From a virus, in UHGV virus genome UHGV-0312576: a stretch of DNA of 64,000 nucleotides, one strand, 5' to 3'. The position numbers and the translations under genes were made by a program. A model generated the notes under the pieces. The model did no database searches. It worked only from the letters and a program-made list of their open reading frames with translations, and was not told the DNA's origin. This document shows, in pieces, positions 39,555 to 57,821 of the stretch (the stretch's first letter is position 1; every line of letters starts with the position of its first letter).

Positions 39555-39755
39555 TTAATCAAAATATCCAAGGGTTTCTTGAAAAATAGATTCCAATTTC
39601 TCTTTAAGAACATGTTTGTCTGTCTTGTAGGCATCGATTTCAACAGTTACCTTAAGGCCAGGGAATTCAATTTCATTCTCTGGTTTATTATTACGTAAAG
39701 TCATTCCTTCCTCATCAAATACAAATTTTTGTGGTATTACTTGTGTTTTGGTCAT
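39555..39755 (-). CDS. small ORF (66 aa) tightly linked upstream of the RSH gene; candidate partner (antitoxin or regulator)
   Basis: Its stop codon lies 17 nt before the RSH start, with the RSH RBS between them. No recognisable motif. Confidence 0.45.
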   Translation of the reverse strand: MTKTQVIPQKFVFDEEGMTLRNNKPENEIEFPGLKVTVEIDAYKTDKHVLKEKLESIFQETLGYFD

Positions 39756-39886
39756 GCTTATAGCTTCCTTTCTTTTGATTTAAGTGATATATAGTTATTC
39801 TCCATCCAAAACTTCACTTTCCAGATAATTCATAAATTACGTTTTACAAATACCACACATACTAATCACAAAGGAAGGTGATGAAA

Positions 39887-40666
39887 ATGGCGGTAGCTCA
39901 GAAAAGTGCTATATCTGTGGGTGTGTTATATATTCCGTCCGATTTATACAAGACAACCAGGGATATTAGTATTTCGTTTAATCAACTTTGCAAGGACTCT
40001 CATGAACGGATTAAATATAAGAAATATTGCCCATCTTGTAATAAGGAGATAAAGTCTAACGATGATATCATTAAGGGGTATGAGTACGAGAAAGGGCGTT
40101 ATGTGGTATTCACTCAGGATGAATTGGATAAGCTGAAGACTGAAAAAGATAGGACAGTCCATATAGATCATACGGCCAAGATGTCTGAGATTGATAGCAT
40201 CTACTTTGACAAGAACTACTATATGATTCCGGAGCCAGGTGCAGAGAAATCATATGAACTGTTTCGCCAGGCATTGCTGAGCCTGAAACTGGTAGCGGTC
40301 GCCAAGACTGTGTTAGGTACTAAGCAGGAACTCTTGGTATTGTATCCTACTAAGGAATGTATTATTGCCAAGATATTATTTTACAAAGAAGAAATTCAGG
40401 AGTTACCAAAGCCAATACCAAAAGTAGAGATAAAGAAGGAAGAATTGGATTTGGCAAAGCTGATGGTTAAATCTCTGGAGAAGAAATTTGATATATCAGC
40501 ATACCATGATGAATATCAGCAACGGCTGCGAGAGGCCATAACAGCTAAGATTAATGGTAAAGAGATTGTGGCTACAGATAATGTAACCCATGAAATGATA
40601 GATCCTATGGAGGCTATGAAGCAGGTAATAGAAATGCTGCAAAATGGTAAAGTTGGTACAGCATAA
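39887..40666 (+). CDS. ku: Ku protein (bacterial NHEJ DNA-end-binding protein)
   Basis: 'AISVGVLYIPSDLYKTT', 'KYKKYCPSCN' and 'YHDEYQ' line up with bacterial Ku (AISFGLVNVPVKVYSAT...RYKRVCEACG...YHDTYQ). AAGGAAGG RBS. Start trimmed from the track's GTG. Confidence 0.85.
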   Translation: MAVAQKSAISVGVLYIPSDLYKTTRDISISFNQLCKDSHERIKYKKYCPSCNKEIKSNDDIIKGYEYEKGRYVVFTQDELDKLKTEKDRTVHIDHTAKMSEIDSIYFDKNYYMIPEPGAEKSYELFRQALLSLKLVAVAKTVLGTKQELLVLYPTKECIIAKILFYKEEIQELPKPIPKVEIKKEELDLAKLMVKSLEKKFDISAYHDEYQQRLREAITAKINGKEIVATDNVTHEMIDPMEAMKQVIEMLQNGKVGTA

Positions 40667-41601
40667 TGGATATATTTGATAAAAAGGGTATCAAACCAAT
40701 GCTGATTGCAGAGATGGTAGATCCGTTTGACTCAGATGATTATATCTATGAACTGAAGCTGGATGGGATGCGCTGCATAGCGTATTTTAATGATAGTAGC
40801 GTGGATTTTCGTAATAAGAGGGATTTTAAATTACTTCCAAGATTCCAGGAATTAAAGGATATCTACAAAAATATTAAGCATAAATGCATCCTTGATGGAG
40901 AGCTGGCCGTTATAGTGAATGGTGTTCCTGTTTTTAGTATTTTGCAACGTAGGTCTATACTGAATGATCCATTTAAGATAGAGTTGGCGTCTAAAATGAA
41001 TCCTGCTATATTTGTTGCCTTTGATGTCATATATTTTGATGGGGATGTAGTTGTTGATAAACCGCTTATAGAACGTAAGAAATTGTTGGAAGAATGTTTT
41101 GCTGAAGAGAGTAGTAAGATTGCATATAGCAGATATATTGAAGAACATGGCATAAAACTTTTTGAACTGGCAAAGCAGCAACATTTAGAGGGTATTGTTG
41201 CCAAAAAGAAGGATAGTTTATACTGGTTTGGTAAAGAAACACGGGACTGGGTTAAAATCAAGGTTATGACCGATGAGGATTTTGTGCTGTGTGGATATAT
41301 TCTAAAACCAAATAATATGACCAGCTTTGTTATAGGCCAGTATGATGGCAGTGAATTAGTTTATAAGGGGCATATTACTCTTGGTGCAAGTCTGAGGAAG
41401 CTTAATGAATACAAATACAGTATAATCAACCATTCGCCGTTTGAACATACACCTCCAGGAAATGAGAAGGCGGTATGGTTGGCTCCGGAGTTGGTCTGCA
41501 TTGTAGAGTATATGCCAGATGAGTCAATAGAGCGTCGGCAAGCGGTTCTGAAGGGAATAAGAGATGATAAGCTGCCGATGGAGTGCCAGGTAGGGGAGTA
41601 G
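40666..41601 (+). CDS. ATP-dependent DNA ligase, LigD ligase-domain-like
   Basis: 'YELKLDGMRCIAYF' is the KxDG adenylation motif I. Its start overlaps the Ku stop (TAATG), indicating translational coupling. Confidence 0.8.
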   Translation: MDIFDKKGIKPMLIAEMVDPFDSDDYIYELKLDGMRCIAYFNDSSVDFRNKRDFKLLPRFQELKDIYKNIKHKCILDGELAVIVNGVPVFSILQRRSILNDPFKIELASKMNPAIFVAFDVIYFDGDVVVDKPLIERKKLLEECFAEESSKIAYSRYIEEHGIKLFELAKQQHLEGIVAKKKDSLYWFGKETRDWVKIKVMTDEDFVLCGYILKPNNMTSFVIGQYDGSELVYKGHITLGASLRKLNEYKYSIINHSPFEHTPPGNEKAVWLAPELVCIVEYMPDESIERRQAVLKGIRDDKLPMECQVGE

Positions 41602-41636
41602 GGATGCTCCCCTTTTTGACATACAAAAGCCTGATG

Positions 41637-42347
41637 TTATTTGCATTTTCTTGCTACATAAGTAACTACCTTTGTATACAGATGACTAATTATTGAATCC
41701 CGTGGAATATCATATTCTTGTTTGCTAACAGAATACTTTAATATATTCCATCCACTAAAAATATCATTTAAATATTCCTGTATTTTTCCAGTTGAAAGGT
41801 TTACTTCAAATTGTGCGTCTAAGTTTTCTTGTGTATCTAAATTTATTTCTTTAATATCAGAATTTATTACTAAACAGACAATACCATCTTTTCGCAATCC
41901 ATTTTTGATTTCAAACAATTTTTTAATAAATGATTGTTCAGTGTCAATATGTTCTAATGCAGATATTGCCATAATAAAATCAAAGGCATTAACACTAATA
42001 TCATATTCTTCAATAGATTTTACAATTCCAATAATGTGTGAACTCACATTATGTTCTTTAGCGTTTTGACGGAGTTTTTCAATTGCAACTTCCAATAAAT
42101 CAACACATTCTACAGTACAATTTATGTTTTTATATTTTTCCGCAATGTAAATACAGTTACGACCAATACCACACCCCAAGTCCAATACTTGAAGCTTATC
42201 GTATCCGTTAAATAAAGGGCATATATCCTGTACTGTTTTTATGGGTTTACGTAACCAAGTGTTTGATTGATATAGTTTTTCATTAGTATATATCGCAACA
42301 TGTGACATTTTCTCATTCGCTCGAATATGTGCTAATCTTTCATCCAA
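41637..42347 (-). CDS. SAM-dependent methyltransferase, TehB-like
   Basis: 'VLDLGCGIGRNCIYIA' motif I plus a downstream 'FDFIMAISALEHI', resembling TehB. Confidence 0.6.
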   Translation of the reverse strand: MDERLAHIRANEKMSHVAIYTNEKLYQSNTWLRKPIKTVQDICPLFNGYDKLQVLDLGCGIGRNCIYIAEKYKNINCTVECVDLLEVAIEKLRQNAKEHNVSSHIIGIVKSIEEYDISVNAFDFIMAISALEHIDTEQSFIKKLFEIKNGLRKDGIVCLVINSDIKEINLDTQENLDAQFEVNLSTGKIQEYLNDIFSGWNILKYSVSKQEYDIPRDSIISHLYTKVVTYVARKCK

Positions 42348-42359: not shown

Positions 42360-43400
42360 CAATAAATATATCTGTTTGATACCCAAACTTTGACTAATTA
42401 TAGCATGTATTTGTGTACATGAAAACGATAAGTTCGGTGAGGAGATTCGGAAGTGAGGAGATTTCATTGAAATACAAGGGATTTTTGAGATTTTGTGGTG
42501 TGATTTAGGATGAGTGAGAGGTGTTATTTCCTTATATAAAGGTCGAGTTCGGGAAAGTGCTTGATTTATAGGGAGTTTTAGGGGGGAGGAGAGTGATTTT
42601 GCAGTATTTTGGGGCGAAAATAAATTATCTGAAAATTTAGTTTTCGTTGTAAATGCGTTGTTTTACCGAACTCGATACCGAACGTGCTTTGAGTAAATAT
42701 GTAAATTGTGTGGACGTTTGGTACAATTATAAGGGGTGTTTTGGGTGCCAGAAAGTGAAAATTTTAAGGTTATGTGTGGGTGGAACAGATAGGGGCATTT
42801 GGTGAAAATGGGATTAACTGGGAAATGTAAACATACCCCCACCTATGGTATAGACAGCAAAAACCCTTGATAAATAAGGGCAAAATCAAAAATGCGTACT
42901 TTTGTTATTAGTACGCATTGTAAATGATTTCCAACTATGTGATATAGTATTGATTACTATAAATATTGCGTTGTAAAAACAACAAAATATATCGAACTGT
43001 ATACTTGTTTAAACAAGGCTGAAATTGTCTGACAATAACATGTTTAAACAAGTTCGACACAACGCTGTTTCGACAACATAACTGGCATGGTCAATACTTC
43101 AAAATCTATCACTATCAACCATGCCAGTCGTTCCTGGATATGTTACACCTACATCAATACACACCCAATAAATCAATCTACAATCCAATACCCCACACAA
43201 CGTACCACAATCAAATCCTAGCCATTTAACATCCACACTCTAACGACTATCCACCCACATCACAAACCAGCCTTAAAACGTCTCACAATGTGTCACATCG
43301 TTCCTGGCTCCATTACAAAATCCTATCCCTACATTATAATGTCCACAATCTAATCACATATGCCCATATAGCGCACCACAACGGCCCACAATCCATTTTA
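42360..43400. promoter_or_regulatory. ~1 kb non-coding control region: strand-asymmetric arms, palindromes and CACAAT repeats (candidate ori/pac/operator region)
   Basis: No ORF of 60 aa or more. Plus strand is G+T-rich and C-poor up to ~42900, then A+C-rich and G-poor from ~43100. Contains the 14-bp palindrome CTTGTTTAAACAAG plus a near copy, the hairpin ACTGGCATGGT..ACCATGCCAGT, the hairpin ATGCGTACT..AGTACGCAT, and GTGAGGAGATT direct repeats. Confidence 0.5.
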
Positions 43401-43405
43401 CGCTA

Positions 43406-43627
43406 TCAGTCAATATCAATATATAGGTTACATCCAATAGCCTTACATAATGTGTATATAATATTGATTCCAGGATTAGGAGTCCTACCAGCTAATAAAT
43501 TACTAACTGTCTGACGTGACCATCCTGTAATATTGCAAATATCTTTTTGGCGCAATCCTTTGTCAATCATTATGTGTTTAATTTGTTTCATAATATCATT
43601 AACATTGCCACTGTATTCTAGTTTCAT
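43406..43627 (-). CDS. HTH XRE-family (cI-like) transcriptional regulator
   Basis: 'IKHIMIDKGLRQKDICNITGWSRQTVSNLLAGRT' is an HTH_3 motif. Start trimmed to MKLEYS, with a GGAGGA RBS. Transcribed divergently from the plus-strand early genes. Confidence 0.6.
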   Translation of the reverse strand: MKLEYSGNVNDIMKQIKHIMIDKGLRQKDICNITGWSRQTVSNLLAGRTPNPGINIIYTLCKAIGCNLYIDID

Positions 43628-43859
43628 TCTATCCTCCAAATGGGTAGTATTATAGTATAACATATCCACACATTGTATTGCAATGACAAAACATTGTTGA
43701 TTTTTACAAAAATATTATAGCATAATTTGTGCACTATTTTCGCAAGAAAAGTATTGTAATAACAATACAAGTATGCTATATTATAAGTGTCCCAAGGGAC
43801 AGGGCGCAAGCCCTACAACATAATAGCAACAATCGGCACCTTGATAATTGAATAGACTT

Positions 43860-45120: not shown

Positions 45121-46252
45121 TGACAGAGGAATTGACGGTGTAGCCGTGGGGAATTCAGTTTCCCAATTCCATTCGCCGTAACAAACGGTGACAATAGACG
45201 TAACTACAACGTACTATAAAAAATCGTAGGACAGATACTGCTATCTAAGTAAGTAGCAGCGTATAGGTCAAAACGATAGCTAGTGATCTTAATACCTGCC
45301 CATAAGGTAATTCGGACAATCGAGTAGGGGAAGTTCCGAAAGTGTCGTAACGTGAAACCTTATAGAGAGGGGGCGGAAAGTACCTCTTACAATAGAAAAG
45401 GGGCGGAGCTACTAACTCCACCCAATTCACGGGAACACATTGATATGTGAACCTCTCATTCGCAATTTGAGGATATCACATTTCAACGATTCTGTCAATT
45501 CTGACAGAAAAATTCCCTAAAACAAATTGAGCGCATTTTCTCATTCTGTATTTTTGACTACGGAACGTGTATTAAAGTCGCTCAAAAAAAAGAGAACTAA
45601 TAATGTGTGATATGGTGGTGTGCCTATCACATGGCAAACAAGACAGGTTTTAGAGACTGTACAAGAGGTTAAAGAAATCATAGTTGATTATTTAACACAT
45701 TCTCTAAATAGAGAAAACGGAACGAGATAAGCGCCGTAAAACTGCTATCCGTGTTAGCCGAAACACGCTGGTGACATCCGGGACGATATTAGGTAATCAG
45801 TTAAATATTATCAGATGTTACGCGAATAACCAACGCAAAAATCGGACTACCCAATAAGGGATAGACAACTACATATAAAAGTTTTGGATTATTTAAAGTA
45901 AATAGTCCAACGGTGTGGCCGTGGTAAGCTGTAACCGTGATGATAGACTTTTTCTATCATATGGATAATATCGTAGTCTTTTCAATAATTAGCGCGCTAG
46001 AGGATGGAGCGGGTGAAAATGGGGATGTGATACCATATCATAATAGGAAAGTAAACCATTGTGGACAAAAGCTAATGTTAAAGTCTAAACAGCCGTAGAG
46101 AATGAACGGCAGACGAAAGACGAAAAACTTACATATTACAGGTAGTCAATCACGACTGCTTTTTATTATTTACCATGCAAAGAATACAATCAACTTGTTT
46201 GCATGGATAAGTGATAAAGAGAATATCAACGATAAGAAGTGGAGGGAACACA

Positions 46253-46974: not shown

Positions 46975-47181
46975 ATGAAAGATAGACAAATTGAGCACAA
47001 AGTTATCAATGGCCTATTAAAACAAGGATATCAGCCAGATAAAGCTGTTTTAGAGGACATACGGAAAACTATAGTGAGGGAATCCATAGACAAATATCAT
47101 CCGTACTACATCCTGGGATTAGTCTGTGACTATGGCTTTTATTTGGGCGTAAAGGGTACACAATTTGAGGTCCCATTATAG
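46975..47181 (+). CDS. hypothetical protein (68 aa)
   Basis: Small ORF. Neighbouring unlisted ORFs of 48-59 aa (approximately 46580-46759, 46817-46963 and 47604-47783) also carry RBSs. Confidence 0.4.
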   Translation: MKDRQIEHKVINGLLKQGYQPDKAVLEDIRKTIVRESIDKYHPYYILGLVCDYGFYLGVKGTQFEVPL

Positions 47182-47209
47182 AATATATACGCAAGGAAGG
47201 GTGGGAGAA

Positions 47210-47386
47210 ATGAAAACTATAACTACAATTTTAATCACGGCAGCAATTACGGCGCTCATTACAGCGTCTATTTTAATGCACAAATCTAATTATCTCAATA
47301 TGTCCAATGTGACAGACTTTAGAGTCACAGATACGGGGCTAATGCTCTATACAGAGGATGGCGCAGGATGGTACTGGGAACGATAA
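47210..47386 (+). CDS. small membrane protein
   Basis: AGGAAGGGTGGGAG RBS. 'ILITAAITALITASIL' is a TM helix. Confidence 0.4.
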   Translation: MKTITTILITAAITALITASILMHKSNYLNMSNVTDFRVTDTGLMLYTEDGAGWYWER

Positions 47387-47797
47387 TTAGGGCATATACA
47401 CGTCACAGTGTATATGCTCATTTGCTTATGGGAGAGATACATAATGGATTTTGTAACAGCATTATTGATATTGGCCAGAGGTTATGTAGTCAGACTTGCC
47501 CATGATATTATGGGAGATTAAAAGAGGTATTTCTTTGGGAATATCTCTTTTTTAGTGGAATGAAATAGAGAATACATATAACGAAAGGGAACAAGGTGAG
47601 ACTATGGCTTATAAAAGGAAAACAGTTGATAGATGGGACATATTAGGTAATTGTGGCTATGGATGGGAAGTTGAAAATTCCGAATACACAAGAGAAGACG
47701 CAAAGCGAAGCTTGAAAGAATATAGGGAAAACTGCAATTACCCTATTAAGATGGAAAAGCACAGAGAAAAAATTGAAGAATAAGAAAGGTTAAAACG

Positions 47798-48319
47798 GTG
47801 GAGATTATGACAAGAGAAATTACAACAATTTTAGAAGCAAGTAGAGAATGGGTTGGAACTTTTAATGCTTTTCCTTTGGAAATGATAACAAAACTATTTA
47901 ATATAGACGTTGATGGTTGGAGAGAAATTACCCCTATTTCAAAAGGTTGTAGAGTATGGAGTAATAAAAATCAGGAGATGGGTTATATAAAAGAGATAAA
48001 AGAAAATGAAGATAGGGAAGAAATTGCAGTTATTGAACTTGACAATGGAGAAAAAGTTGAGGAATTAAAAGAAGATTTAAGCAGAGAAGAAGATGATTAC
48101 TTTCCTATGTGGGGGACAATGTGGCAGTTTTCCGATTCTTGTGATAATTGGTGGCTTGAAAATCATCTTAATGAAATGGCCGATTGTGGCTTTAGGATTT
48201 ATGAATCAGATGAATTTGGCTACTTCTTCGGAATAGATGGTGCCGGATATGATTTTTATGAAGCACACTGGATTCCTTTATACAATAAGCGTGGTTTACA
48301 ATGGCATACAACCGTATAA
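47798..48319 (+). CDS. acidic hypothetical protein (173 aa), Trp-rich C-terminal domain
   Basis: GTG start. Acidic middle region (EENEDREE..EELKEDLSREEDD) and C-terminal 'YFFGIDGAGYDFYEAHWIPLY'. Confidence 0.55.
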   Translation: MEIMTREITTILEASREWVGTFNAFPLEMITKLFNIDVDGWREITPISKGCRVWSNKNQEMGYIKEIKENEDREEIAVIELDNGEKVEELKEDLSREEDDYFPMWGTMWQFSDSCDNWWLENHLNEMADCGFRIYESDEFGYFFGIDGAGYDFYEAHWIPLYNKRGLQWHTTV

Positions 48320-48344
48320 ATACGAAAAGAAAGGCGGTACATAT

Positions 48345-48533
48345 ATGAAAGAATGGAACGGGAAACCCGTTAAGAAGTGGAATAGCGCTATGGACCAGAA
48401 CGGGAACAAGGTTGGCAAAATTTTCTATGAGGACGGCACAACGGAGATTGTCAGAGGTGGAAACGCTGCACAGTTACCATGGACAAGTGATAAAAACTAT
48501 AAGTCACTGTCTGGACTATATGGGAGCAAATAG
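48345..48533 (+). CDS. hypothetical protein (62 aa)
   Basis: Internal start with an AAAGGCGG RBS. I read one nucleotide differently from the ORF track at ~48480, so coordinates follow the track. Confidence 0.45.
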   Translation: MKEWNGKPVKKWNSAMDQNGNKVGKIFYEDGTTEIVRGGNAAQLPWTSDKNYKSLSGLYGSK

Positions 48534-48546
48534 GGAGGATAGTATT

Positions 48547-48819
48547 ATGTATGGAATGAAAGAGATAGGGAAATACAATGTTGATTATGAAGGCTTGTCT
48601 TATGATGGAAAAATTCCTTATCAAATGGTTATCATTGCTGAGTTTGATGGAGATAAGGAACTATCAAGGAAAAGGTTTTATTTTAGAGATAATATTGGAT
48701 TAAATAGATTTTATATTATGCCACCATTAGGAACGGAAGAACAGATTGAGGATATTTTACAATATCCTGATAATTCAAAGATCAGAGTATATAATCAGAT
48801 GGTCATTGAAAGAGAATGA
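48547..48819 (+). CDS. hypothetical protein (90 aa)
   Basis: GGGAGG RBS before the MYGMKE start. Confidence 0.5.
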   Translation: MYGMKEIGKYNVDYEGLSYDGKIPYQMVIIAEFDGDKELSRKRFYFRDNIGLNRFYIMPPLGTEEQIEDILQYPDNSKIRVYNQMVIERE

Positions 48820-49095
48820 AAGGTAGATTTCCAGAGGAGTAAAAAAATGGTCTATCAATGGGAATTAGATAAAATTAAAGAATGGAGCACGGAAACAATC
48901 AAAAATTATATATGGTCGGCTGTCAGTGTTGGTCAGCCTGTGCCGGGATGTATATCTGTAGAGGCATTAAGGCAGGAACTTGTAAGCAGAGGGGAAAAAC
49001 CGAAGGGTTATCATAATACATAACAGAATATCGAATAACTGAAGGAAGGTTTAGCAGCCTTCCTTTTATAATACGGAAAATTGGAGGATAAAATT

Positions 49096-49512
49096 ATGTT
49101 AAATATAGCAAAGTTTCAGAACAATTTCAAAGTGACTATTCAAGGCGGAATCAAAATGGTTAACGAGTGGACTAAAGAAGGAGAGGGGAAATTTTGTCAG
49201 TACTCCGGTATGGAATATTATAATGGGAACTTTGATGTAGATATTCATGCTATTAATAGAATTGGTGAGCTGTTACTTGCATATATCAATAAATGCAATT
49301 ATTCAGACTTCAAAGAATCCGATTTATCTATTATAGATAATAGAGTTTCTTGGAGCCAAATAGAAGACGCCGATTGTAATATTTTGGATACAACGGAGGA
49401 ACAAGAGCGGGAAGAAAAGTGTTACATATGCGATTATACCGTATTCGTATCCATCAACGGTATTGAACTAGAAGAATACGATTTAAGAGAAATGCTACCA
49501 AAGGCAAATTAA
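49096..49512 (+). CDS. hypothetical protein (138 aa)
   Basis: GGAGGA RBS before MLNIAKF. Confidence 0.55.
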   Translation: MLNIAKFQNNFKVTIQGGIKMVNEWTKEGEGKFCQYSGMEYYNGNFDVDIHAINRIGELLLAYINKCNYSDFKESDLSIIDNRVSWSQIEDADCNILDTTEEQEREEKCYICDYTVFVSINGIELEEYDLREMLPKAN

Positions 49513-49624
49513 ACCCGAAGAAATTGTGATTTTTTGTGAACAGTTAGAAGGCATTACGGAGAATACATACCGTAGTGCCTTTTATAGTGTCCATAATCGG
49601 CAAAATCATAGGAGGGTAAGGAAT

Positions 49625-49900
49625 ATGTTAAAGGAGATTAAAACAAGCTGCTATGAGCCGTTATATACGCTCACAGAAGCGGAAAAGATTATTGATTTGC
49701 AGAGGTCCAGGAGAAGTAAGAATCAAAAACGAGTAAGTATTTGCTTTTTCAAACAAAGAGCATGTGGTGCTCTAATGATTGTTTTTGGTTGTGTGGTTGC
49801 AGTTATTGACAACACGGCGGGAATGGCTGCTATTGTCTGCATTGCGATAGGTATTGGGCTTGTTATCACTCGCCAGATTGTAATGATGTTTAGGAGGTAA
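49625..49900 (+). CDS. small membrane protein (91 aa)
   Basis: GGAGGG RBS before MLKEIK. C-terminal TM helix 'ALMIVFGCVVAVI...IVCIAIGIGLVI'. Confidence 0.45.
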   Translation: MLKEIKTSCYEPLYTLTEAEKIIDLQRSRRSKNQKRVSICFFKQRACGALMIVFGCVVAVIDNTAGMAAIVCIAIGIGLVITRQIVMMFRR

Positions 49901-50003
49901 CGAGACTATGATTACGGAAATTATTATCACCGGAGTTTGAGGAATATCTGAAGGATAAGAAATGCATACAGTAATTATTATAATCAAATGGAGAGATAAC
50001 ACC

Positions 50004-50252
50004 ATGGATAAGTATTATAGAGCCAGAGTTAGAGCAAGATGGGGTATTGATGAAGTAATGCTATGCGGATATACGTTCCAAGAAGCAATTAAGAGGTTTT
50101 CTAAAGACTGTATTGAATCGGATGATACAGGGTACTTTTTTGATTTGGGGAATGCTGATATAAGCAGTATGGAAGATAACGAACATATTTACTATGTGGA
50201 TGATTTGCGTGGAAAATATGCGATAGAGATTGAGTCATTTGAGGTGAACTAA
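50004..50252 (+). CDS. hypothetical protein (82 aa)
   Basis: GGAGAG RBS before MDKYY. Confidence 0.5.
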   Translation: MDKYYRARVRARWGIDEVMLCGYTFQEAIKRFSKDCIESDDTGYFFDLGNADISSMEDNEHIYYVDDLRGKYAIEIESFEVN

Positions 50253-50290
50253 CAAAAAGCAATTTCATTTGAAGGATGGAGGCAAATATT

Positions 50291-50788
50291 ATGACGATGC
50301 AAGAATGTATTTTGACAAAACTTTTAGATTGTGGTAGTGCTGATTTATCACTTCTTGAAGACATAAATTATGATTTAGATGAAATTCTGGACGGTCTTAT
50401 GAAAAATGGAGATTTGAGCATAAATAGTCTGTTTAGGGAAGTGTTCAGAACTGGGGCAATGGAATTAAAAGAAGAATTTGAATTGCAGAAAGATTATATA
50501 GAAGAGAGGATAAAAGAGGAGCTAGAAGAAGTAAGGAAAGAATGCATTGAGTACGGATTGATGACAGAGGAACAAATTGAAGAAGATCAAGATTATATAA
50601 AACTTGTTACTGACTTGGAATTGTTACATAGTGATGAGTTAAATCCAGAAGAGGATATTGAATGTTACTGCAACTATATGGACACTCATGTTTTTCTGAA
50701 ACATATTGATTTTTATAGAAAGTGGATGGAGTCAGAAGTTAATGATATCGAAGATAAAATGGGGTGGGAATTTAAAAACATAGCGTAA
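50291..50788 (+). CDS. highly acidic hypothetical protein (DNA-mimic-like composition)
   Basis: GGATGGAGG RBS. Very D/E-rich (EEFELQKDYIEERIKEELEEVRKE...EEQIEEDQDY). Confidence 0.55.
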   Translation: MTMQECILTKLLDCGSADLSLLEDINYDLDEILDGLMKNGDLSINSLFREVFRTGAMELKEEFELQKDYIEERIKEELEEVRKECIEYGLMTEEQIEEDQDYIKLVTDLELLHSDELNPEEDIECYCNYMDTHVFLKHIDFYRKWMESEVNDIEDKMGWEFKNIA

Positions 50789-50829
50789 GAAATTCACATT
50801 TCAAGCCTATTTCATGGAGGAGATACATA

Positions 50830-51051
50830 ATGGATATAAATAAATTCTGCGTTAATGATAAGACATGTGGAAGTTGTTGGGGAACTCTAGTTGCTTTTGA
50901 CAAACTGGAAGAACTTATTTCTTATGAAAACTGCAAAATGGAATTTCAGCAAAGGTTGTATGAATGGAACGGCAAATTATATCTTTGGTTTAAAGATATG
51001 AGCAAAGATCCTGACGGGCTTACAGGTGATAATTATTTTATAGAAATATAA
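50830..51051 (+). CDS. hypothetical protein (73 aa)
   Basis: GGAGGAG RBS. Confidence 0.45.
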   Translation: MDINKFCVNDKTCGSCWGTLVAFDKLEELISYENCKMEFQQRLYEWNGKLYLWFKDMSKDPDGLTGDNYFIEI

Positions 51052-51152
51052 ATATAAAGTAGGGAAGTTTCATAGTGGGAAGACTTATGTGGCTATGATG
51101 GGACTAATAAGCGTTGGATGCATCAAAGTTTAGTGAAAAACAGGAGCAAAAT

Positions 51153-51374
51153 ATGAGTTATTACAAGAATTGGAAGTGTTATAGTTATGGTCTTTGGGGT
51201 AGTACACAAGAATTTGAATATCAGACTCTTAAAGAATATTTTGATATTGACGGAAGTGATGTGGCTTTTTGTAAAAAAGATATTTTAGAATATAAAGCCA
51301 ATAATTATTATCAAATAGAAGCAGGTGGGAAGCTTAATGGAAAAGCGTATGGGTTTGTAATTATGCTTAAATAA
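51153..51374 (+). CDS. hypothetical protein (73 aa)
   Basis: Internal start MSYYKNW with a CAGGAGC RBS. Confidence 0.45.
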   Translation: MSYYKNWKCYSYGLWGSTQEFEYQTLKEYFDIDGSDVAFCKKDILEYKANNYYQIEAGGKLNGKAYGFVIMLK

Positions 51375-51397
51375 AGAACAAAGGGAGTTAGAAGATT

Positions 51398-51727
51398 ATG
51401 AAAACAGTTAGATGTTATAGAAAATATGGAGAATTAAAAAAAGAAATATCCTCTGGTCACTATGATATATCTATGGATTCTGTGGGACAGTTAATAAATT
51501 ATCCACTTGGATATAGCACAGACATTACGATAAGGGATTATGACGGAACTATGTGCATTGATTATGATGTATACAAAAACGATGAACATGGAAAGGTTCT
51601 CGAATACCTTGACGGTGGGAAGGTTTGTGATGTTTCCCAAATGCCTTTTACAGATAAAGGATTTTGGAGATTAATTAAAAGGAATATAAAAGATCATTTA
51701 AAACTACATAGAATATTGTTCCAATAA
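51398..51727 (+). CDS. hypothetical protein (109 aa)
   Basis: AAGGGAG RBS. Confidence 0.5.
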   Translation: MKTVRCYRKYGELKKEISSGHYDISMDSVGQLINYPLGYSTDITIRDYDGTMCIDYDVYKNDEHGKVLEYLDGGKVCDVSQMPFTDKGFWRLIKRNIKDHLKLHRILFQ

Positions 51728-51759
51728 CTTATCAATTAAATAGTGAAAGGGGTTACATA

Positions 51760-51948
51760 GTGGCACGGGTAAAATATATGAACAAAGAACAGAAGAAGCA
51801 ATACAATCTTTCACAGTATCCTAATTTTTCTGTGACTGGAAGTATTTATGGAATGAAGAAACTGTATTGCGGTATGGACGCACTTTTAGTAAGAAGTGGT
51901 TCATGGATTTATCGTGTGCCGGAGAGCGTTTATAATGTAGCACATTGA
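51760..51948 (+). CDS. hypothetical protein (62 aa)
   Basis: Small ORF with a GAAAGGGG RBS. Confidence 0.4.
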   Translation: MARVKYMNKEQKKQYNLSQYPNFSVTGSIYGMKKLYCGMDALLVRSGSWIYRVPESVYNVAH

Positions 51949-51962
51949 ATGGAGGAAATAAC

Positions 51963-52226
51963 ATGACAGATTGGACATTAGAAATGATTGAGGAAGTAGA
52001 AAAACTTAATGTTAATACACCATACGGACAGATTATTGATGCAGACACTATTTTAGTAGATGCATTACAAACAAATGATTTTGAGCTTTCAGGTATCGCT
52101 CAAGATATATTCAATATTTACAAAGAAAGTCAAGATAAGCCATCTGTAAAGAAAATATTTTATGAATTTGTGGGAGTGGAATTTGACGAATATCTTATGA
52201 AATGTCAAAAGGAAATAAGCAGATGA
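51963..52226 (+). CDS. hypothetical protein (87 aa)
   Basis: AATGGAGGAAA RBS before MTDWTL. Confidence 0.5.
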   Translation: MTDWTLEMIEEVEKLNVNTPYGQIIDADTILVDALQTNDFELSGIAQDIFNIYKESQDKPSVKKIFYEFVGVEFDEYLMKCQKEISR

Positions 52227-52279
52227 ATCAATGATTTGATGGGAGAATATAAGGTTATAAAATTTTTGGAGGATGGATT

Positions 52280-52546
52280 ATGTTTATAGAACTGTATTGC
52301 AAAAAGGCATTTGAAGATTTGCTGGGACATTTCGTAGTTGGAGATATTTATAGTGGCAACCTTGATATTAGAGATGAATCCATGTTCAAGTTTCACCTCA
52401 ATTGGATATTGAGACATGTAAATAACGGAGATTTTAAAATTGTTGCTCCTTGGAAATATACAAAAGCACATATTAATCAAGATTTAATAAATAACAGATA
52501 TGTAGTTCCTTTGATTGAATATTGTGAAGCATTTTATAACAAATGA
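52280..52546 (+). CDS. hypothetical protein (88 aa)
   Basis: TTGGAGGATGG RBS. Confidence 0.5.
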   Translation: MFIELYCKKAFEDLLGHFVVGDIYSGNLDIRDESMFKFHLNWILRHVNNGDFKIVAPWKYTKAHINQDLINNRYVVPLIEYCEAFYNK

Positions 52547-52584
52547 AATGTACCATTCAGGGTATAGGAAGCGAGGGAAGAATT

Positions 52585-52764
52585 ATGAGTAAGGAAGAAA
52601 AAATTGAATTAAGTTTCACTGATGATATTGGATATACAGCATTTTCAGTATATAGAACGTGGTATGAAAAACAACATTTAACAAATGCGGAAAAGTTATA
52701 TCACTTGGCATGTGCTGATGATGAAAGTGATTTAATAGATTGTACAGGAAAATACTACGAATGA
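52585..52764 (+). CDS. hypothetical protein (59 aa)
   Basis: GCGAGGGAAG RBS before MSKEEK. Confidence 0.4.
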   Translation: MSKEEKIELSFTDDIGYTAFSVYRTWYEKQHLTNAEKLYHLACADDESDLIDCTGKYYE

Positions 52765-52819
52765 TGTCTTTCATCATTTTATTAAATAAGGAGACGGTTA
52801 AAGAACGGAGAGATGCAAT

Positions 52820-53011
52820 ATGAATGAATTTCATTTAGAATTGGAATTTAATACCGACACAGATAATGTTGGTTTCCTATCAATATCACAAGTTGGATTA
52901 AAGAAAGGTAAGAAATATAGAGAGAAACAAAAGTCTTATTACACAGAAAATTTGAACAAACAATTTATTGTTGATTCGGTAGAAAACTTTGTGAATGAGA
53001 AGTTGTCGTAA
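52820..53011 (+). CDS. hypothetical protein (63 aa)
   Basis: ACGGAGAG RBS. Confidence 0.4.
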   Translation: MNEFHLELEFNTDTDNVGFLSISQVGLKKGKKYREKQKSYYTENLNKQFIVDSVENFVNEKLS

Positions 53012-53046
53012 TAGGAAATGCACGTTTACAGAGTGGAGGTGCATAA

Positions 53047-53271
53047 ATGAGAAGTCCAATGAGCAGCAACTTGGTATGTTTAATAGAACAAGCCATTGAT
53101 GATTGTTACTTCAAAGGTGAGGGACGTGTTAATGATGAGAAAGGGTTATCTATTTATGCTGAGTGGACAGATAGTAAAAATGAAGGATATTCAGTCATGT
53201 TAATTACCATAAAGGAAAATGGCATTGTGAGATTTTCATATTGTGATTATGGAACACAATGTGCTAATTGA
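53047..53271 (+). CDS. hypothetical protein (74 aa)
   Basis: GTGGAGGTG RBS. Confidence 0.45.
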   Translation: MRSPMSSNLVCLIEQAIDDCYFKGEGRVNDEKGLSIYAEWTDSKNEGYSVMLITIKENGIVRFSYCDYGTQCAN

Positions 53272-53303
53272 GAGTAAGGGTTTTAGAAAGGAAGCGACGG
53301 AAT

Positions 53304-53486
53304 ATGAAAGATTATTTGATTATTTTGAATATGGGAAAAGACTATAAACTCCCTTTACATTTAAAATCCCATAACCACGCGGAGGCTCTCTTGAAGGCAA
53401 GTGAGTTTTGTGTAACTGAGGGATACTACCCAATGGGTATAGATGTAATCTTATTGCACAGCAATATAGGTATTATAGAAATTTAG
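53304..53486 (+). CDS. hypothetical protein (60 aa)
   Basis: GAAAGGAAG RBS before MKDYLI. Confidence 0.4.
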   Translation: MKDYLIILNMGKDYKLPLHLKSHNHAEALLKASEFCVTEGYYPMGIDVILLHSNIGIIEI

Positions 53487-53633
53487 CAATGATGGTGGTG
53501 GCAATCAGAGAATATATATCTGGTTGCTTTTATTTTTGCTCAGAAAGGGAATTAGTATGATGACATATATTTACTGTGCAATAATTGAATTGGAAAACAA
53601 GAGTATATAGAGAAAAGAGAGGTGGAACCTATA

Positions 53634-53981
53634 ATGAAATTTTATCATGAATCAGTTGGTGAATGCGTAAACCAGGTTTATGAAATAAATGCAGACACCT
53701 GGGAAGATGCCAAAAAGAAGGCTTTCAATGATATGGCCGTTGGGGACTATATTGCAATGTGTGATGAAAATGCGGTAAAAGAATGCGATAACTGGAGAGA
53801 TTATCATTACATAGATGAGGAAATGTGCGAGAAATATGCACGATTAGGGAAGGGATGCTGGGCAACTTATTTGAATTCTGATATTGAATACTGGGAAGAA
53901 CGTGTTTATTCATTTTCAGATGCTCCAGACACATATTTAGATAGTAACGGTGACGTGTTTGACGATTGGAAACACGTTTAA
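53634..53981 (+). CDS. hypothetical protein (115 aa), acidic and Cys/Trp-containing
   Basis: GAGAGGTGG RBS before MKFYHE. Confidence 0.5.
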   Translation: MKFYHESVGECVNQVYEINADTWEDAKKKAFNDMAVGDYIAMCDENAVKECDNWRDYHYIDEEMCEKYARLGKGCWATYLNSDIEYWEERVYSFSDAPDTYLDSNGDVFDDWKHV

Positions 53982-54013
53982 AATATACTTTTCGAGCGAA
54001 GAAGGAGAGAAAT

Positions 54014-54232
54014 ATGTACAAAGTAAAATATACAGACAGTACGGGAAACAACGATAGTATTCAAGATTATTTAACTAAGAAAGAAGCTATAGAAGCGATT
54101 GATTACGAGTTAGATGAAGTGAAGGAATATTTTAAAGGGAGAAACTACGACTATGGAGAATCGGGGAATAAAACAGAAATATGGGATAAAGATGGAAGTG
54201 AGTATGCTTGTTGGGAAATAATTCAAAAATAG
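54014..54232 (+). CDS. hypothetical protein (72 aa)
   Basis: GAAGGAGAG RBS before MYKVKY. Confidence 0.45.
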   Translation: MYKVKYTDSTGNNDSIQDYLTKKEAIEAIDYELDEVKEYFKGRNYDYGESGNKTEIWDKDGSEYACWEIIQK

Positions 54233-54567
54233 AAAAAAATATTGAAAGTTAATCTATAGAGAAGAAATCTGGCACTGGTTTGAGGAAGCATTTAATGTGA
54301 GTGTTGCAGAGGATTTAATGGGCATGTAAACGGAGAATTACATAGTATCAAGAAAAGATGGAGGAAACAAAATGAGCTATAAAAATCTTAAGCCAGAAGA
54401 GGTAATAGAACGGATTCAGGATTTACAGGACTATTTGATGGGAAAACGACAAGAACCAAAATTCCCTTGTTCTGAAATTCTCGGAGCATTAGAATATGCA
54501 AAAGAAACCGTAAGTGTTTTGAAGAGAGCATGAAATACATGTTTGCTGGGAAGGTGAGGATAAAATT

Positions 54568-55158
54568 ATGAATAGAAAATATGACATGAGAATTTGTAAA
54601 TGCGGAAGAATACATATGATTCCGACTGAGAAAATTGAAAAAGCATTGGAAGATAATAAAAATCTTCTTCTTATCTGTGCCGGATGTGGAGCTGCTACAT
54701 TAATAGGGGCAGATATACAGCCGGATTGGGATGAACCAGACAAGGATTGCTATATGATGTATGCCAGTGATTTTTCAAGCTATAAGGATGTGAGCATTAA
54801 TGTATTAGATTTTGATAAGACAGAAGATTTAAAAGGGATTGAAGAAATCTATTACAGTCACGGTCAGAAAGTTCCTATGATGACGGGACAGTATGCAACT
54901 GACTATTTTAATGGGAGATTTTCTGATAGGTGGTATCCAGACTTTTACAAAATTCAGAGAAAAGATATAACAGTTGAAGAAATAATGAAGTTTATTGACG
55001 AATATAAGCATGATAGAACTACTGTAAATATGGACTGGTTTATCAAACAGACGCCAGAGGACATGTTGTTTGAGATTTCCTGTTATATGATTGATGGGTT
55101 TGACTGGAGTGGCACAAAATTTGAAAACGGATGGAATAGTAAACAAAAGGAGAGTTGA
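54568..55158 (+). CDS. zinc-ribbon-containing hypothetical protein (196 aa)
   Basis: N-terminal 'CKCGRIH...CAGCG' (Cx2C...Cx2C). AAGGTGAGG RBS. Confidence 0.55.
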   Translation: MNRKYDMRICKCGRIHMIPTEKIEKALEDNKNLLLICAGCGAATLIGADIQPDWDEPDKDCYMMYASDFSSYKDVSINVLDFDKTEDLKGIEEIYYSHGQKVPMMTGQYATDYFNGRFSDRWYPDFYKIQRKDITVEEIMKFIDEYKHDRTTVNMDWFIKQTPEDMLFEISCYMIDGFDWSGTKFENGWNSKQKES

Positions 55159-55162
55159 GTAT

Positions 55163-55690
55163 ATGTTATCTTTGAAGCAGTCAAATATTATCAAAGAACA
55201 GTTACGACAGGAGAACGCTCATGAATTTGTTGAAAACCTAATCATGAGCTATGCGACGGATACAAACAGAATCGGAGAGCTGCTTGCCTTGATTCCTCGA
55301 ATTGCGGATCGGCAGCTTCAGATTAAACAGAAACAGATTCAGGAATACGTCTTTGCATATAACCTGTTACTTGGAGAAAGACTCAGATGTAAATCTAAAG
55401 CCGGGAAAGTATATAGGCCGGAATTTACAACACTTCTATATGGTTGTAAGGCGCACTTTCCGAATAGCTCCGGTGACGGAGGAAGTCAGGTAGAACAAGA
55501 ATTCTTTTCTGAGTTCATTGAGATTGTAAAGAACAAGGATGGGTTTGACTACGAAAAAGAAGAAGACTGGGAGTGGATTTGTAACACGGCGGATTGCAGG
55601 GAATGGATGCTAGAGGTTATTAAACGGTATATTGATGTTGATTTTGTTGAACCAGAAGTGAGGGTAAGGAGCTACAGAGGAAGGAGATAA
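55163..55690 (+). CDS. hypothetical protein (175 aa)
   Basis: AAAAGGAGAG RBS before MLSLKQ. Confidence 0.5.
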   Translation: MLSLKQSNIIKEQLRQENAHEFVENLIMSYATDTNRIGELLALIPRIADRQLQIKQKQIQEYVFAYNLLLGERLRCKSKAGKVYRPEFTTLLYGCKAHFPNSSGDGGSQVEQEFFSEFIEIVKNKDGFDYEKEEDWEWICNTADCREWMLEVIKRYIDVDFVEPEVRVRSYRGRR

Positions 55691-55695
55691 ATGAT

Positions 55696-55881
55696 ATGCC
55701 GATATTTGAATTTTGGTTAGGAACCGAAGATACGGACAGATTGTTTTCTGTTAAGGCAGCACAGGGTAAGACAGATTTGACTGCTAACGATTTTGCACAG
55801 GAATTGTTAGAGAATGAATTACATAGGCTTCACCCTGGTGTGGTGAGATATGACGAAAATGGAGAGGAAATCAGAAGATGA
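55696..55881 (+). CDS. hypothetical protein (61 aa)
   Basis: AGGAAGGAG RBS. Confidence 0.4.
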   Translation: MPIFEFWLGTEDTDRLFSVKAAQGKTDLTANDFAQELLENELHRLHPGVVRYDENGEEIRR

Positions 55882-56307: not shown

Positions 56308-56390
56308 TGAAACATAGGTTTCTAGGCAGCTTACAATAATGTAGGCTGTTTATGTTTGTGATATTACAACTTATGAAGGAGGAGAAAGAG

Positions 56391-56648: not shown

Positions 56649-56709
56649 TTTGTGATTTACTTTGAATTTTGGTATAATACATGTTATTGAAACAGTGTTT
56701 AAGGAAAGG

Positions 56710-57781: not shown

Positions 57782-57821
57782 GTAAAGAAAGGATTATTTC
57801 ATGGGAGGAATATAGAAGCAT

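What the first reader, a model, noticed from the sequence alone, without database searches (positions are those of the whole stretch)
42360..43400. 1 kb ORF-free region with mirror-image strand composition, perfect palindromes and CACAAT repeats
Between the methyltransferase and the cI-like repressor there is no ORF of 60 aa or more. The plus strand is G+T-rich and almost C-free for about 500 nt, then flips to A+C-rich and G-poor. The flip point sits near two copies of the 14-bp palindrome CTTGTTTAAACAAG, an 11-bp-stem hairpin (ACTGGCATGGT...ACCATGCCAGT) and a 9-bp-stem hairpin (ATGCGTACT...AGTACGCAT). At least five CACAAT(C) repeats lie in the right arm and GTGAGGAGATT repeats in the left. 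This looks like a replication origin, a packaging site, or a large operator or ncRNA locus. It is not simple spacer DNA.
Basis: seen in the sequence. Interest (0 to 1): 0.6.

Follow-up and report, generated by a model that had tools for sequence, protein, structure and literature searches.

The report
Conserved non-coding phage boundary module
A 1-kb gene-free stretch beside the repressor gene of a gut Lachnospiraceae phage is a conserved, selected non-coding module, most likely a two-way transcription stop-and-control region rather than a replication origin or packaging site, though its role is not proven.

Summary
Window 42421-43411 has no coding signal. Its left arm is G+T-rich (C 9%, and 6% in 42421-42617) and its right arm is A+C-rich (G 8%).

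It is a discrete module with sharp ends. I found 13 copies in related human-gut phage contigs. The flanking genes differ between copies: cargo genes on the left and repressor alleles on the right.

The left arm and the terminators evolve about 3 times slower than neighbouring synonymous sites. The right arm is weakly constrained.

The core holds two tandem intrinsic terminators (T1 on the minus strand, T2 bidirectional). A leftward promoter-like site overlapped by a palindrome is conserved in all 12 aligned copies.

RNA read outward from the core is the most C-over-G-rich RNA in the whole 64 kb in each direction, and it is almost structure-free. That is the signature of Rho loading sites in Bacillota.

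Best reading (about 0.4): this is an immunity-region transcription boundary and control module, with intrinsic terminators backed by Rho traps and a regulated leftward promoter.

- Replication origin: about 0.2.
- Convergent non-coding RNAs: about 0.15.
- Packaging or termini site: unlikely.

The region matches no Rfam family. No experiment was possible.

The parts
42421..43411 (.). Whole conserved non-coding module. Its ends are sharp: the left end is TTCGGTGAGGAG.. and the right end is ..CTATCAGTC, which includes the stop codon of the minus-strand HTH gene.
   Evidence: nhmmer and MAFFT on 12-13 copies. Flanks differ between copies.
42421..42860 (.). Left arm. The plus strand is G+T-rich (C 9%). 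Its length is fixed at 419-433 nt across copies and it is under purifying selection.
   Evidence: K = 0.20-0.24 against a neighbour dS of 0.55-0.71. Composition is the same in all copies. No codon periodicity.
42433..42461 (+). Two direct repeats, TTCGG(N1-3)GTGAGGAGA. L044 has three such units.
42397..42425 (-). P1, a promoter-like site TTTTCA-17-TGnTATAAT facing the cargo slot (the methyltransferase in this window). The -35 sits in the conserved left edge of the module.
   Evidence: 11/12 match with extended -10 in the six copies scored (win, L001, L038, L041, L043, L045). At least two different cargos sit behind it: the methyltransferase here and a 142-aa ORF in L038.
42421..42617 (-). Leader downstream of P2. 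As minus-strand RNA it is C 34.5% and G 6% and nearly unstructured. It is the top excess-C tract of the window for leftward RNA.
42624..42653 (-). P2, a promoter-like site TTTACA-18-GA(T/C)AAT, kept in all 12 aligned copies.
42623..42637 (.). Palindrome AATT(A/G)TCTGAAAATT overlapping the -10 of P2. It matches the CodY box AATTTTCWGAAAATT at 14 of 15 positions and is the only site in the 64 kb with 2 or fewer mismatches. A sister palindrome lies at 43023-43037.
42775..42846 (.). Nearly invariant 70-nt block (TGGGTGGAA..GGGGCATTTGGTGAAAATGGGATTAACTGGGAAATGTAAAC..CCCCCACC). Its role is unknown.
   Evidence: It has no match in 185,579 representative genomes.
42863..42881 (-). T1, an intrinsic terminator for leftward transcripts (stem plus UUUUUG).
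   Evidence: In L006 the hairpin is still formable despite sequence changes, judged by eye from the alignment. Folding.
42891..42919 (.). T2, a 10-bp-stem hairpin with an A-tract upstream and a T-tract downstream, so it can terminate in both directions. The plus-strand T-tract is better in relatives.
   Evidence: One compensatory U-A to A-U pair.
42970..42983 (.). Invariant palindrome GTTGTAAAAACAAC. The same GTTGTAAA half-site overlaps the -35 of P2 (42646-42653).
42992..43056 (.). Clade-specific nested palindrome. It runs from TCGAAC through CTTGTTTAAACAAG (43004-43017), ATTGTCTGACAAT (43024-43036) and CATGTTTAAACAAG (43039-43052) to GTTCGA. In clade B other palindromes take its place.
   Evidence: Centre K = 0.79, equal to or above dS.
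43081..43128 (.). Hairpin with an 11-bp perfect stem (16 nt at 88%). It is absent or disrupted in L001, L044 and clade B.
43126..43405 (.). Right arm. The plus strand is A+C-rich (C 34%, G 8%). Its length varies from 261 to 416 nt. It consists of two degenerate tandem units (43128-43297 and 43298-43411). It forms the 3' untranslated part of the HTH-gene transcript on the minus strand, and as plus-strand RNA it is the top excess-C tract of the window.
43318..43342 (.). Conserved block AATCCTATCCCTACATTATAATG containing the palindromic ACATTATAATGT, a -10-like hexamer readable on either strand. Minus-strand -35 candidates are TTGACT in L004 and TTGGCT in L006. A plus-strand ATTACA is present in the window.
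43406..43669 (-). Context: an 87-aa Cro/C1-type HTH gene whose stop codon lies in the last bases of the module.

Best explanation
The region is a transcription boundary and control module of the phage's immunity region. In function it resembles the lambda stretch between the end of the cI-rex transcript and PL/OL-nutL-tL1.

Shown from sequence:
- The minus-strand HTH (repressor-like) gene has no terminator after its stop codon. Its transcript must therefore run about 500 nt through the right arm and centre to two tandem intrinsic terminators, T2 and then T1.
- T2 can also stop rightward transcripts.
- About 210 nt beyond T1 sits a conserved leftward promoter-like site, P2, overlapped by a palindromic operator-like site. 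It is followed by a 200-nt leader and a second promoter, P1, that faces a slot holding different cargo genes.
- RNA read outward from the terminator core is long (200-280 nt), very C-rich, G-poor and almost unstructured. This holds leftward through the left arm and rightward through the right arm.

Inferred:
- These outward tracts act as Rho loading sites. Transcripts that escape the hairpins would be killed before they reach the anti-repressor and cargo genes on the left, or run antisense into the repressor gene on the right.
- P2 transcripts would be attenuated unless the phage relieves termination.
- The clustered short motifs (AGTTCGG, GTTGTAAA, AATTGTCnGACAATT) would be binding sites for regulators common to all these phages or to the host. 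This would explain the strong sequence conservation of the left arm.
For: - The module is discrete and conserved in 13 copies, while flanking cargo and repressor alleles vary.
- Left arm K = 0.20-0.24 and T1/T2 K = 0.15-0.23, against a neighbour dS of 0.55-0.71. Meanwhile the adjacent Ku-ligase genes are truncated or split in L004, L006, L007 and L040.
- T1 and T2 have stems followed by U tracts, with z-scores of -3.8 to -4.2. T2 shows one compensatory pair.
- P2 is kept in all 12 aligned copies and is overlapped by an invariant-type palindrome. P1 is shared by copies carrying different cargo.
- The strongest skew (0.70, C 6%) coincides exactly with the leader downstream of P2.
- The arms are the number 1 excess-C tracts of the 64 kb in each reading direction: 0.31 and 0.29 per nt, about 3 sd above the mean.
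- As RNA the outward tracts fold at only -4 to -6 kcal/mol per 150 nt.
- The composition is kept in every copy, and also in non-homologous insertions of the right arm (G 4-12%).
- In B. subtilis, stretches over 150 nt with C above G are the main determinant of Rho termination, and purine-rich sense strands reflect Rho avoidance (PMC13323073). Rut sites there are unstructured and pyrimidine-rich, and they curb antisense RNA (PMC12350095).
- The phage's own genes are 55-60% purine on the sense strand.
- AGTTCG occurs 5 times in the element and once in the other 63 kb, on both strands. This suggests DNA-level sites.
Against: - Nothing was measured. Promoters, terminators and Rho dependence are all predictions.
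- Whether the host encodes Rho was not tested.
- By base pairing, the same composition can be read as inward RNA selected to evade Rho. Sequence alone cannot say which strand was selected.
- Rut sites are usually not conserved at the sequence level. The roughly 70-nt invariant block at 42775-42846 and the overall constraint on the left arm are only explained by postulating unknown binding proteins.
- P2 has an 18-nt spacer and a weak -10 (GACAAT) in most copies.
- In clade B there is no cargo downstream of P2.
- Excess C of similar size (0.23-0.25) occurs antisense to ordinary early genes.
Confidence: 0.4

Rival explanations
1. It is a replication origin, lytic or plasmid-type. Short G-rich motifs would be arranged in mirror orientation (TGTGG on the left, CCACA on the right; CGTTGT on the left, ACAACG on the right) around a palindromic centre that is melted. 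An initiator or helicase would bind them, as at SaPI or SF3-helicase origins.
For: - Several families of short repeats are present, some mirrored about the centre.
- The right arm is a degenerate tandem duplication.
- The centre keeps palindromes although its sequence is replaced between clades.
- The left arm is conserved without RNA structure, which fits protein binding.
- The element lies about 3 kb from the gene-orientation switch.
Against: - The repeats are irregularly spaced and of low copy number. There is no tandem iteron array.
- The centre is not AT-rich relative to the genome: 0.32 against 0.35.
- The cumulative skew minimum is at 39.9 kb, and the local flip has terminus polarity.
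- No initiator gene is adjacent. DnaA boxes are not enriched window-wide: 299 matches against 288 expected.
- The centre evolves at or above the neutral rate.
- Conserved terminators and promoters suggest a role in transcription.
Confidence: 0.2
2. The arms are two convergent long non-coding RNAs, or 3' UTR-derived RNAs. Their G+U-rich, C-poor composition was selected so that untranslated RNA escapes Rho and reaches the shared terminators. The RNAs then act in trans or in cis, for example as sponges or regulators.
For: - The right arm is necessarily transcribed as the 3' UTR of the HTH gene.
- In clade B the left arm follows the ligase stop by about 10 nt, with no T-tract on the ligase hairpin.
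- Sense-strand G over C is a phage-wide property.
- Several one-sided changes keep G-U or A-U pairs in predicted helices.
Against: - No conserved plus-strand promoter precedes the left arm. In the window, Ku-ligase has its own strong terminator at 41593-41618.
- Folding is no better than shuffles, with z from +0.5 to -1.5.
- Covariation is inconclusive: 2 double changes, and 99.1% of cells paired against 98.6% in shuffles.
- There is no Rfam match and no complementary target within the window.
Confidence: 0.15
3. It is a site of a programmed double-strand break, or the virion DNA ends. Flanking GT-rich, Chi-like tracts would be oriented so that the 3'-ended strands at the break resist AddAB and load RecA. 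This would fit the neighbouring Ku and ligase genes.
For: - On both sides the G+T-rich strand runs 5' to 3' towards the centre, which is the orientation Chi needs.
- Ku and an ATP-dependent ligase lie 0.8-2.5 kb away.
- Palindromes sit at the centre.
Against: - Terminase and portal are 25 kb away.
- The element is internal and intact in every contig, including isolate-derived ones. No contig ends there.
- Ku-ligase decays in several relatives while the element stays intact. More distant Ku-ligase loci lack the element.
- The centre is not conserved.
- The host Chi sequence is unknown, so this could not be tested.
Confidence: 0.05
4. It is mostly decaying, non-functional DNA. The arms would be remnants of former convergent genes that keep their ancestral sense-strand skew, with only the terminators functional.
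For: - The centre (K = 0.79) and right arm (K = 0.36-0.43, with many indels) evolve near the neutral rate.
- The skew direction matches the phage's sense-strand rule.
Against: - The left arm evolves about 3 times slower than dS and keeps its length.
- The skew exceeds that of any gene. On the G-rich strand it is T>A, not A>T as in genes.
- There is no protein similarity to any ORF of the fetched loci, and only one overlapping called protein in 5.8 billion.
Confidence: 0.07

Closest known systems
Lambda immunity-region layout: end of the cI-rexAB transcript, then OL/PL, nutL and the Rho-dependent terminator tL1 (from established knowledge)
   Same: A repressor-type gene is transcribed leftward and its transcript is terminated. 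A regulated leftward promoter follows, whose leader is a candidate Rho-dependent attenuator ahead of accessory and anti-repressor genes.
   Different: - There is no sequence relationship.
- The operator-like sites here do not co-vary with the adjacent repressor allele.
- About 500 nt of non-coding RNA lies between the repressor stop and the terminators.
- No N- or Q-like antiterminator has been identified.
- The rightward C-rich tract has no lambda counterpart.
Rho utilisation (rut) tracts and Rho suppression of antisense RNA in Bacillota (PMC13323073, PMC12350095)
   Same: The outward tracts are over 150 nt with C far above G, pyrimidine-rich and unstructured. They sit where RNA would be untranslated or antisense.
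   Different: - Known rut sites are not conserved modules with invariant blocks.
- A mirrored pair flanking a bidirectional intrinsic terminator has not, to my knowledge, been described as a unit.
- Rho dependence is untested here.
Bidirectional intrinsic terminators between convergent genes
   Same: T2 is a hairpin flanked by an A-tract and a T-tract, placed between converging transcription units.
   Different: It is embedded in a 1-kb non-coding module, with a second unidirectional terminator and long skewed flanks.
Origins with mirrored initiator sites around a meltable centre (SaPI ori, SV40 or papillomavirus ori). Recalled from memory; the papers found were not read.
   Same: Short motifs are oriented in mirror image on the two sides of a palindromic centre.
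   Different: - There are no regular iteron arrays.
- The centre is not AT-rich or conserved.
- No initiator gene is adjacent.
- Promoters and terminators are the conserved features.
CodY box AATTTTCWGAAAATT of low-GC Gram-positive bacteria (from established knowledge)
   Same: 42623-42637 matches at 14 of 15 positions and overlaps a promoter -10, the usual position for repression.
   Different: - A nearly identical palindrome in the centre (AATTGTCTGACAATT) suggests a dedicated operator family instead.
- CodY in the host was not checked.

Membership tests
Rho-dependent terminator / rut tract (Bacillota type) | Stretch of more than 150 nt with C well above G in the RNA | tested here: met
   Leftward RNA of 42421-42617 is C 34.5% and G 6%. 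Rightward RNA of 43126-43405 is C 34% and G 8%. Both rank first in the window for excess C in their direction. Criterion taken from PMC13323073.
Rho-dependent terminator / rut tract (Bacillota type) | RNA lacks stable secondary structure and is untranslated | tested here: met
   MFE is -4 to -6 kcal/mol per 150 nt. No coding signal.
Rho-dependent terminator / rut tract (Bacillota type) | Termination depends on Rho in vivo or in vitro, and the host encodes Rho | not testable with these tools
   No expression data are available and host rho was not looked up. The purine-rich sense strands of the phage genes (55-60%) are only indirect support.
Intrinsic (Rho-independent) terminator | GC-containing stem-loop followed by a U tract, conserved in relatives | tested here: met
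   T1 at 42863-42881. T2 at 42891-42919 with U tracts on both strands. One compensatory pair in T2.
Structured non-coding RNA (any Rfam family or a new one) | Match to a covariance model, or covariation and folding energy beyond chance | tested here: not met
   Rfam returned only RAGATH-30 at E = 0.42 and 22 bits, against 59.5 needed. Folding z ranged from +0.5 to -1.9. The covariation test had no power: 2 double changes.
Iteron-type replication origin | Tandem, regularly spaced iterons next to an AT-rich unwinding element | tested here: not met
   The repeats are short and irregularly spaced. Centre GC is 0.32 against a window value of about 0.35.
Iteron-type replication origin | Adjacent or overlapping initiator gene, and position at the skew minimum | tested here: not met
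   The neighbours are a methyltransferase and a small HTH protein. The cumulative skew minimum is at about 39.9 kb.
pac/cos packaging site or genome terminus | Next to the terminase genes and/or at the ends of assembled genomes | tested here: not met
   Terminase and portal lie at 14.2-17.7 kb. The element is internal in all contigs.
attP site | Core identical to a host sequence; integrase adjacent; split in lysogens | tested here: not met
   The invariant block has 0 matches in 185,579 representative genomes. The integrases are at 19.7 and 60.9 kb. The element is intact in isolate-derived contigs.
Protein-coding gene(s) | Open frame with third-position excess of substitutions | tested here: not met
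   Phase counts are 16/24/13 and 19/17/20, against 29/7/85 in the ligase. L038 has stops in the longest shared frame.
Operator array of the adjacent HTH repressor | Repeats shared with the divergent promoter region, co-varying with the repressor allele | tested here: not met
   The switch-region repeats (TATTATAGCATA-type, 43648-43784) are absent from the element. Centre type and repressor allele assort independently.

The most novel reading that the evidence does not exclude
The roughly 430-nt left arm, which is unstructured, extremely strand-skewed, more strongly conserved than the flanking genes and absent from Rfam, may be a new kind of cis-element. One possibility is a dedicated bidirectional 'Rho-trap' insulator that phages use to isolate the lysogeny transcript from anti-repressor and defence cargo. 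Another is a new origin type built from mirrored G-rich sites.
Probability: 0.2. Interest if true: 0.65.

Novelty: new variant of a known kind. Interest (0 to 1): 0.45.

Why it matters
If the reading is right, this would show that temperate phages of gut Firmicutes package a compact two-way insulator. It would combine intrinsic terminators with mirrored Rho-loading tracts, placed between the repressor transcript and a hot spot for cargo and defence genes. That would be a natural, portable example of the recently described link between strand composition and Rho in Bacillota. It could also be useful as a genetic part. The module is also a sequence landmark for a cargo-insertion slot in a family of large Lachnospiraceae phages that has no relative in the reference phage or plasmid collections searched.

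Tried and rejected
- **blastn against phage and plasmid collections.** No match.
- **Rfam, E-value and gathering modes.** Nothing.
- **Methyltransferase as a probe for relatives.** None found.
- **An 18-mer DNA probe.** It gave three chance loci, L033-L035.
- **Skew profiles of more distant Ku-ligase loci (L002, L005, L009).** No similar mirrored tract next to Ku-ligase there.
- **DnaA boxes.** Not enriched window-wide: 299 matches against 288 expected.
- **Global hairpin between the arms.** The inter-arm inverted matches are not collinear. They reflect the repeated TGTGG/CCACA motif.
- **attP or host-derived core.** The invariant block is absent from representative genomes.
- **Small-protein and type I toxin ideas.** Short frames are not conserved (L006 and L038 break them) and there is no codon periodicity.
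- **Pseudogene remnant.** No protein similarity.
- **5'-3' pairing of the HTH mRNA with 43135-43148 (13 of 14 positions).** Not conserved in L004, which carries the same repressor. It falls within chance expectation.
- **Antisense targets of the arms elsewhere in the window.** None.
- **LexA box, dif/Xer, sigma-54 and telomere-resolution resemblances.** I considered these by eye from memory and dropped them, because the full site architecture is missing.
- **CodY in Lachnospiraceae, by literature search.** Uninformative.
Full report
**Observation**

Between the minus-strand SAM-methyltransferase gene (41637-42347) and a minus-strand 87-aa Cro/C1-type HTH gene (43406-43669), no ORF reaches 60 aa.

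- The plus strand has GC skew +0.69 at 42400-42599 and -0.68 at 43100-43299.
- 200-nt peaks are +0.71 and -0.73, against a window mean of 0.03 and sd of 0.25. The ten most extreme keto-skew windows of the 64 kb all fall in the right arm.
- The hairpins at 42891-42919 and 43081-43128 and the repeat GTGAGGAGATT x2 are real.
- Two details are overstated. Only one of the two 14-mers is a perfect palindrome, and CACAAT occurs four times, not five.
- C is 9% in the left arm, and 6% in its first 197 nt, so it is not near zero.
- The size of the GC skew is not unique. Early genes at 47-63 kb reach +0.69 on their sense strand.

**Setting**

The window is part of a large temperate phage.
- Portal and terminase lie at 14-18 kb, integrases at 19.7 and 60.9 kb, and a ParB-like gene at 59.9 kb.
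- Genes run leftward up to about 39.6 kb and mostly rightward after that.
- Left of the finding lie an anti-repressor-like gene, a RelA/SpoT-domain gene, Ku and an ATP-dependent ligase.
- Relatives of the Ku protein come from Lachnospiraceae genomes, and the related contigs are from human-gut metagenomes.
- Nothing similar exists in the phage or plasmid reference collections searched.

**A discrete, conserved module**

Using Ku as a probe and then a conserved DNA block, I collected 12 distinct copies, and later a 13th.

- In all copies the left arm, centre and right arm occur together.
- Conservation starts abruptly at about 42421 and ends at 43411, inside the stop codon of the HTH gene.
- Outside these ends the genes differ.
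  - On the left, the ligase abuts the module directly, or the slot holds different minus-strand cargo: a methyltransferase, an MscS-like protein, C_GCAxxG and TPR proteins.
  - On the right there are at least three different repressor alleles.
- Ku-ligase is truncated or split in four relatives, while the module stays intact.

**Selection**

Between the window and clade B, synonymous divergence of the neighbouring genes is 0.55-0.71.

| Part | Divergence (K) | Note |
|---|---|---|
| Left arm | 0.20-0.24 | Length fixed at 419-433 nt |
| Terminators T1/T2 | 0.15-0.23 | |
| Right arm | 0.36-0.43 | Many indels; length 261-416 nt |
| Centre | 0.79 | |

- The functional core is therefore the left arm and the terminators. 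The palindromic centre, different in the two clades, is the least constrained part.
- Substitutions show no codon periodicity, and one copy has stops in the longest shared frame. The region is non-coding.
- The base composition is the same in every copy. It is also kept in non-homologous insertions of the right arm.

**Anatomy**

- *Terminators.* T1 (42863-42881) is a minus-strand intrinsic terminator. T2 (42891-42919) has an A-tract before it and a T-tract after it, so it can work in both directions. T2 carries one compensatory base-pair change. From the alignment, T1 in L006 looks still able to form a hairpin despite sequence changes.
- *Path of the HTH transcript.* No terminator lies between the HTH stop codon and T2. 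The HTH transcript must therefore cross the right arm and centre.
- *Promoter P2.* A leftward promoter-like site, TTTACA-18-GA(T/C)AAT at 42653-42624, is present in all 12 aligned copies.
- *Operator-like palindrome.* P2's -10 is overlapped by AATT(A/G)TCTGAAAATT. This is the only site in 64 kb within two mismatches of the CodY box. It differs by one base from a second palindrome at the centre.
- *Promoter P1.* A second leftward promoter-like site (42425-42397, extended -10) faces the cargo slot. It is shared by copies with different cargo.
- *Plus strand.* No conserved plus-strand promoter precedes the left arm. In the window, Ku-ligase has its own terminator at 41593-41618.
- *Short motifs.*
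  - AGTTCG occurs 5 times in the element against once in the other 63 kb, on both strands.
  - CGTTGT/ACAACG and TGTGG/CCACA lie in mirror orientation.
  - GTTGTAAA half-sites overlap the -35 of P2 and form the invariant palindrome at 42970-42983.
- *Right arm.* It is a degenerate tandem duplication.
- *HTH operators.* The repeats of the HTH gene's own promoter region are absent from the module, and centre type does not follow repressor allele.

**RNA or DNA?**

- There is no Rfam match.
- The G-rich strands fold no better than shuffles. The covariation test has no power with two clades.
- The C-rich strands as RNA are almost structure-free, at -4 to -6 kcal/mol per 150 nt.
- The strongest skew (0.70) coincides with the 197 nt downstream of P2.
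- Scanning the whole window for excess C over G in 150-nt windows, the right arm ranks first for rightward RNA (0.31) and the left arm first for leftward RNA (0.29).
- In B. subtilis, stretches over 150 nt with C above G are the main predictor of Rho termination. Purine-rich sense strands reflect avoidance of Rho, which leaves antisense RNA Rho-sensitive (PMC13323073). Rut sites there are unstructured and pyrimidine-rich (PMC12350095).
- The phage's own genes are 55-60% purine on the sense strand.

**Interpretation**

The most economical reading is a transcription boundary and control module.
- The repressor-type transcript is ended by two hairpin terminators.
- Whatever escapes in either direction enters a long Rho-loading tract. 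This happens before it reaches the cargo and anti-repressor genes on the left, or runs antisense into the repressor gene on the right.
- A regulated leftward promoter with a Rho-prone leader starts the next unit.
- The mirror-image composition then follows from the two outward-facing tracts.

What is shown: the conservation, the boundaries, the terminator and promoter sequence features, and the composition ranking.

What is inferred: Rho action, promoter activity, and protein binding to the motifs.

What this reading does not explain is why the left arm, especially 42775-42846, is nearly invariant.

**Rivals**

- *Replication origin with mirrored sites.* It remains possible. It lacks regular iterons, an AT-rich centre, an adjacent initiator and the right skew position.
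- *Convergent non-coding RNAs.* These would need a plus-strand promoter that I cannot find, and there is no structure signal.
- *DNA-end or packaging site with Chi-like flanks.* This fits the strand orientation and the Ku-ligase neighbours. But the element is internal in all contigs, far from terminase, and independent of Ku-ligase.
- *Neutral decay.* This may hold for the centre and much of the right arm, but not for the left arm.

**Verdict**

This is a real, conserved, non-coding module of moderate interest. Its parts are of known kinds (terminators, a promoter with an operator, rut-like tracts), but the arrangement has not, to my knowledge, been described. Its function is unproven.

Noticed in passing
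window 45130-45930: A second stretch without convincing ORFs on the sense (plus) strand. Part of it (45389-45603) is conserved at 77-80% in relatives. It has no Rfam match at gathering score.
   Followed up: partly
window 39878-41601; L004, L006, L007, L040: The phage carries Ku and an ATP-dependent (LigD-like) ligase as an operon with its own terminator. In several relatives these genes are split, internally deleted or truncated. They appear to be dispensable cargo in decay.
   Followed up: partly
window 38435-39643 and 37412-38308: A 402-aa RelA/SpoT-domain protein (phrog_4773), possibly a toxic small alarmone synthetase of the fused toxin-antitoxin kind, sits next to a P22-type anti-repressor gene. 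With the methyltransferase slot, this looks like an accessory or defence island beside the immunity region.
   Followed up: no
window 47000-63500: Early genes have an unusually strong sense-strand bias (GC skew 0.35 on average with peaks of 0.6-0.69; 60% purine). This is far stronger than in the late genes (skew 0.15; 55% purine).
   Followed up: partly
window 25569-25818 and 18784-18838: Three tandem tRNA-Leu genes (anticodons CAA, AAG, TAA) lie at 25569-25818. A partial tRNA-like match lies between the terminase region and an integrase, and may mark an attachment site.
   Followed up: no
window 34000-35600: A transposase gene (428 aa, phrog_2199) sits in a patch of 47% GC, against 35% for the window. 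It is probably an inserted IS element.
   Followed up: no
window 43053-43059 and 43069-43075: Two exact TTCGACA heptamers lie 16 nt apart, next to the central palindrome. TTCGACA is the reverse of the Spo0A box TGTCGAA. They account for 2 of the 5 such heptamers in the window and are present only in type-A centres.
   Followed up: partly
window 43648-43790: The divergent promoter region of the HTH gene has its own repeat set (TATTATAGCATA-type x3 and a 23-nt inverted pair). These are likely the operators of the genetic switch.
   Followed up: no
window-wide: ATTGTGG lies on the plus strand 11 times and on the minus strand 4 times, and 3 of those 4 are in the right arm. This is a possible polar motif, but the numbers are small.
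   Followed up: no
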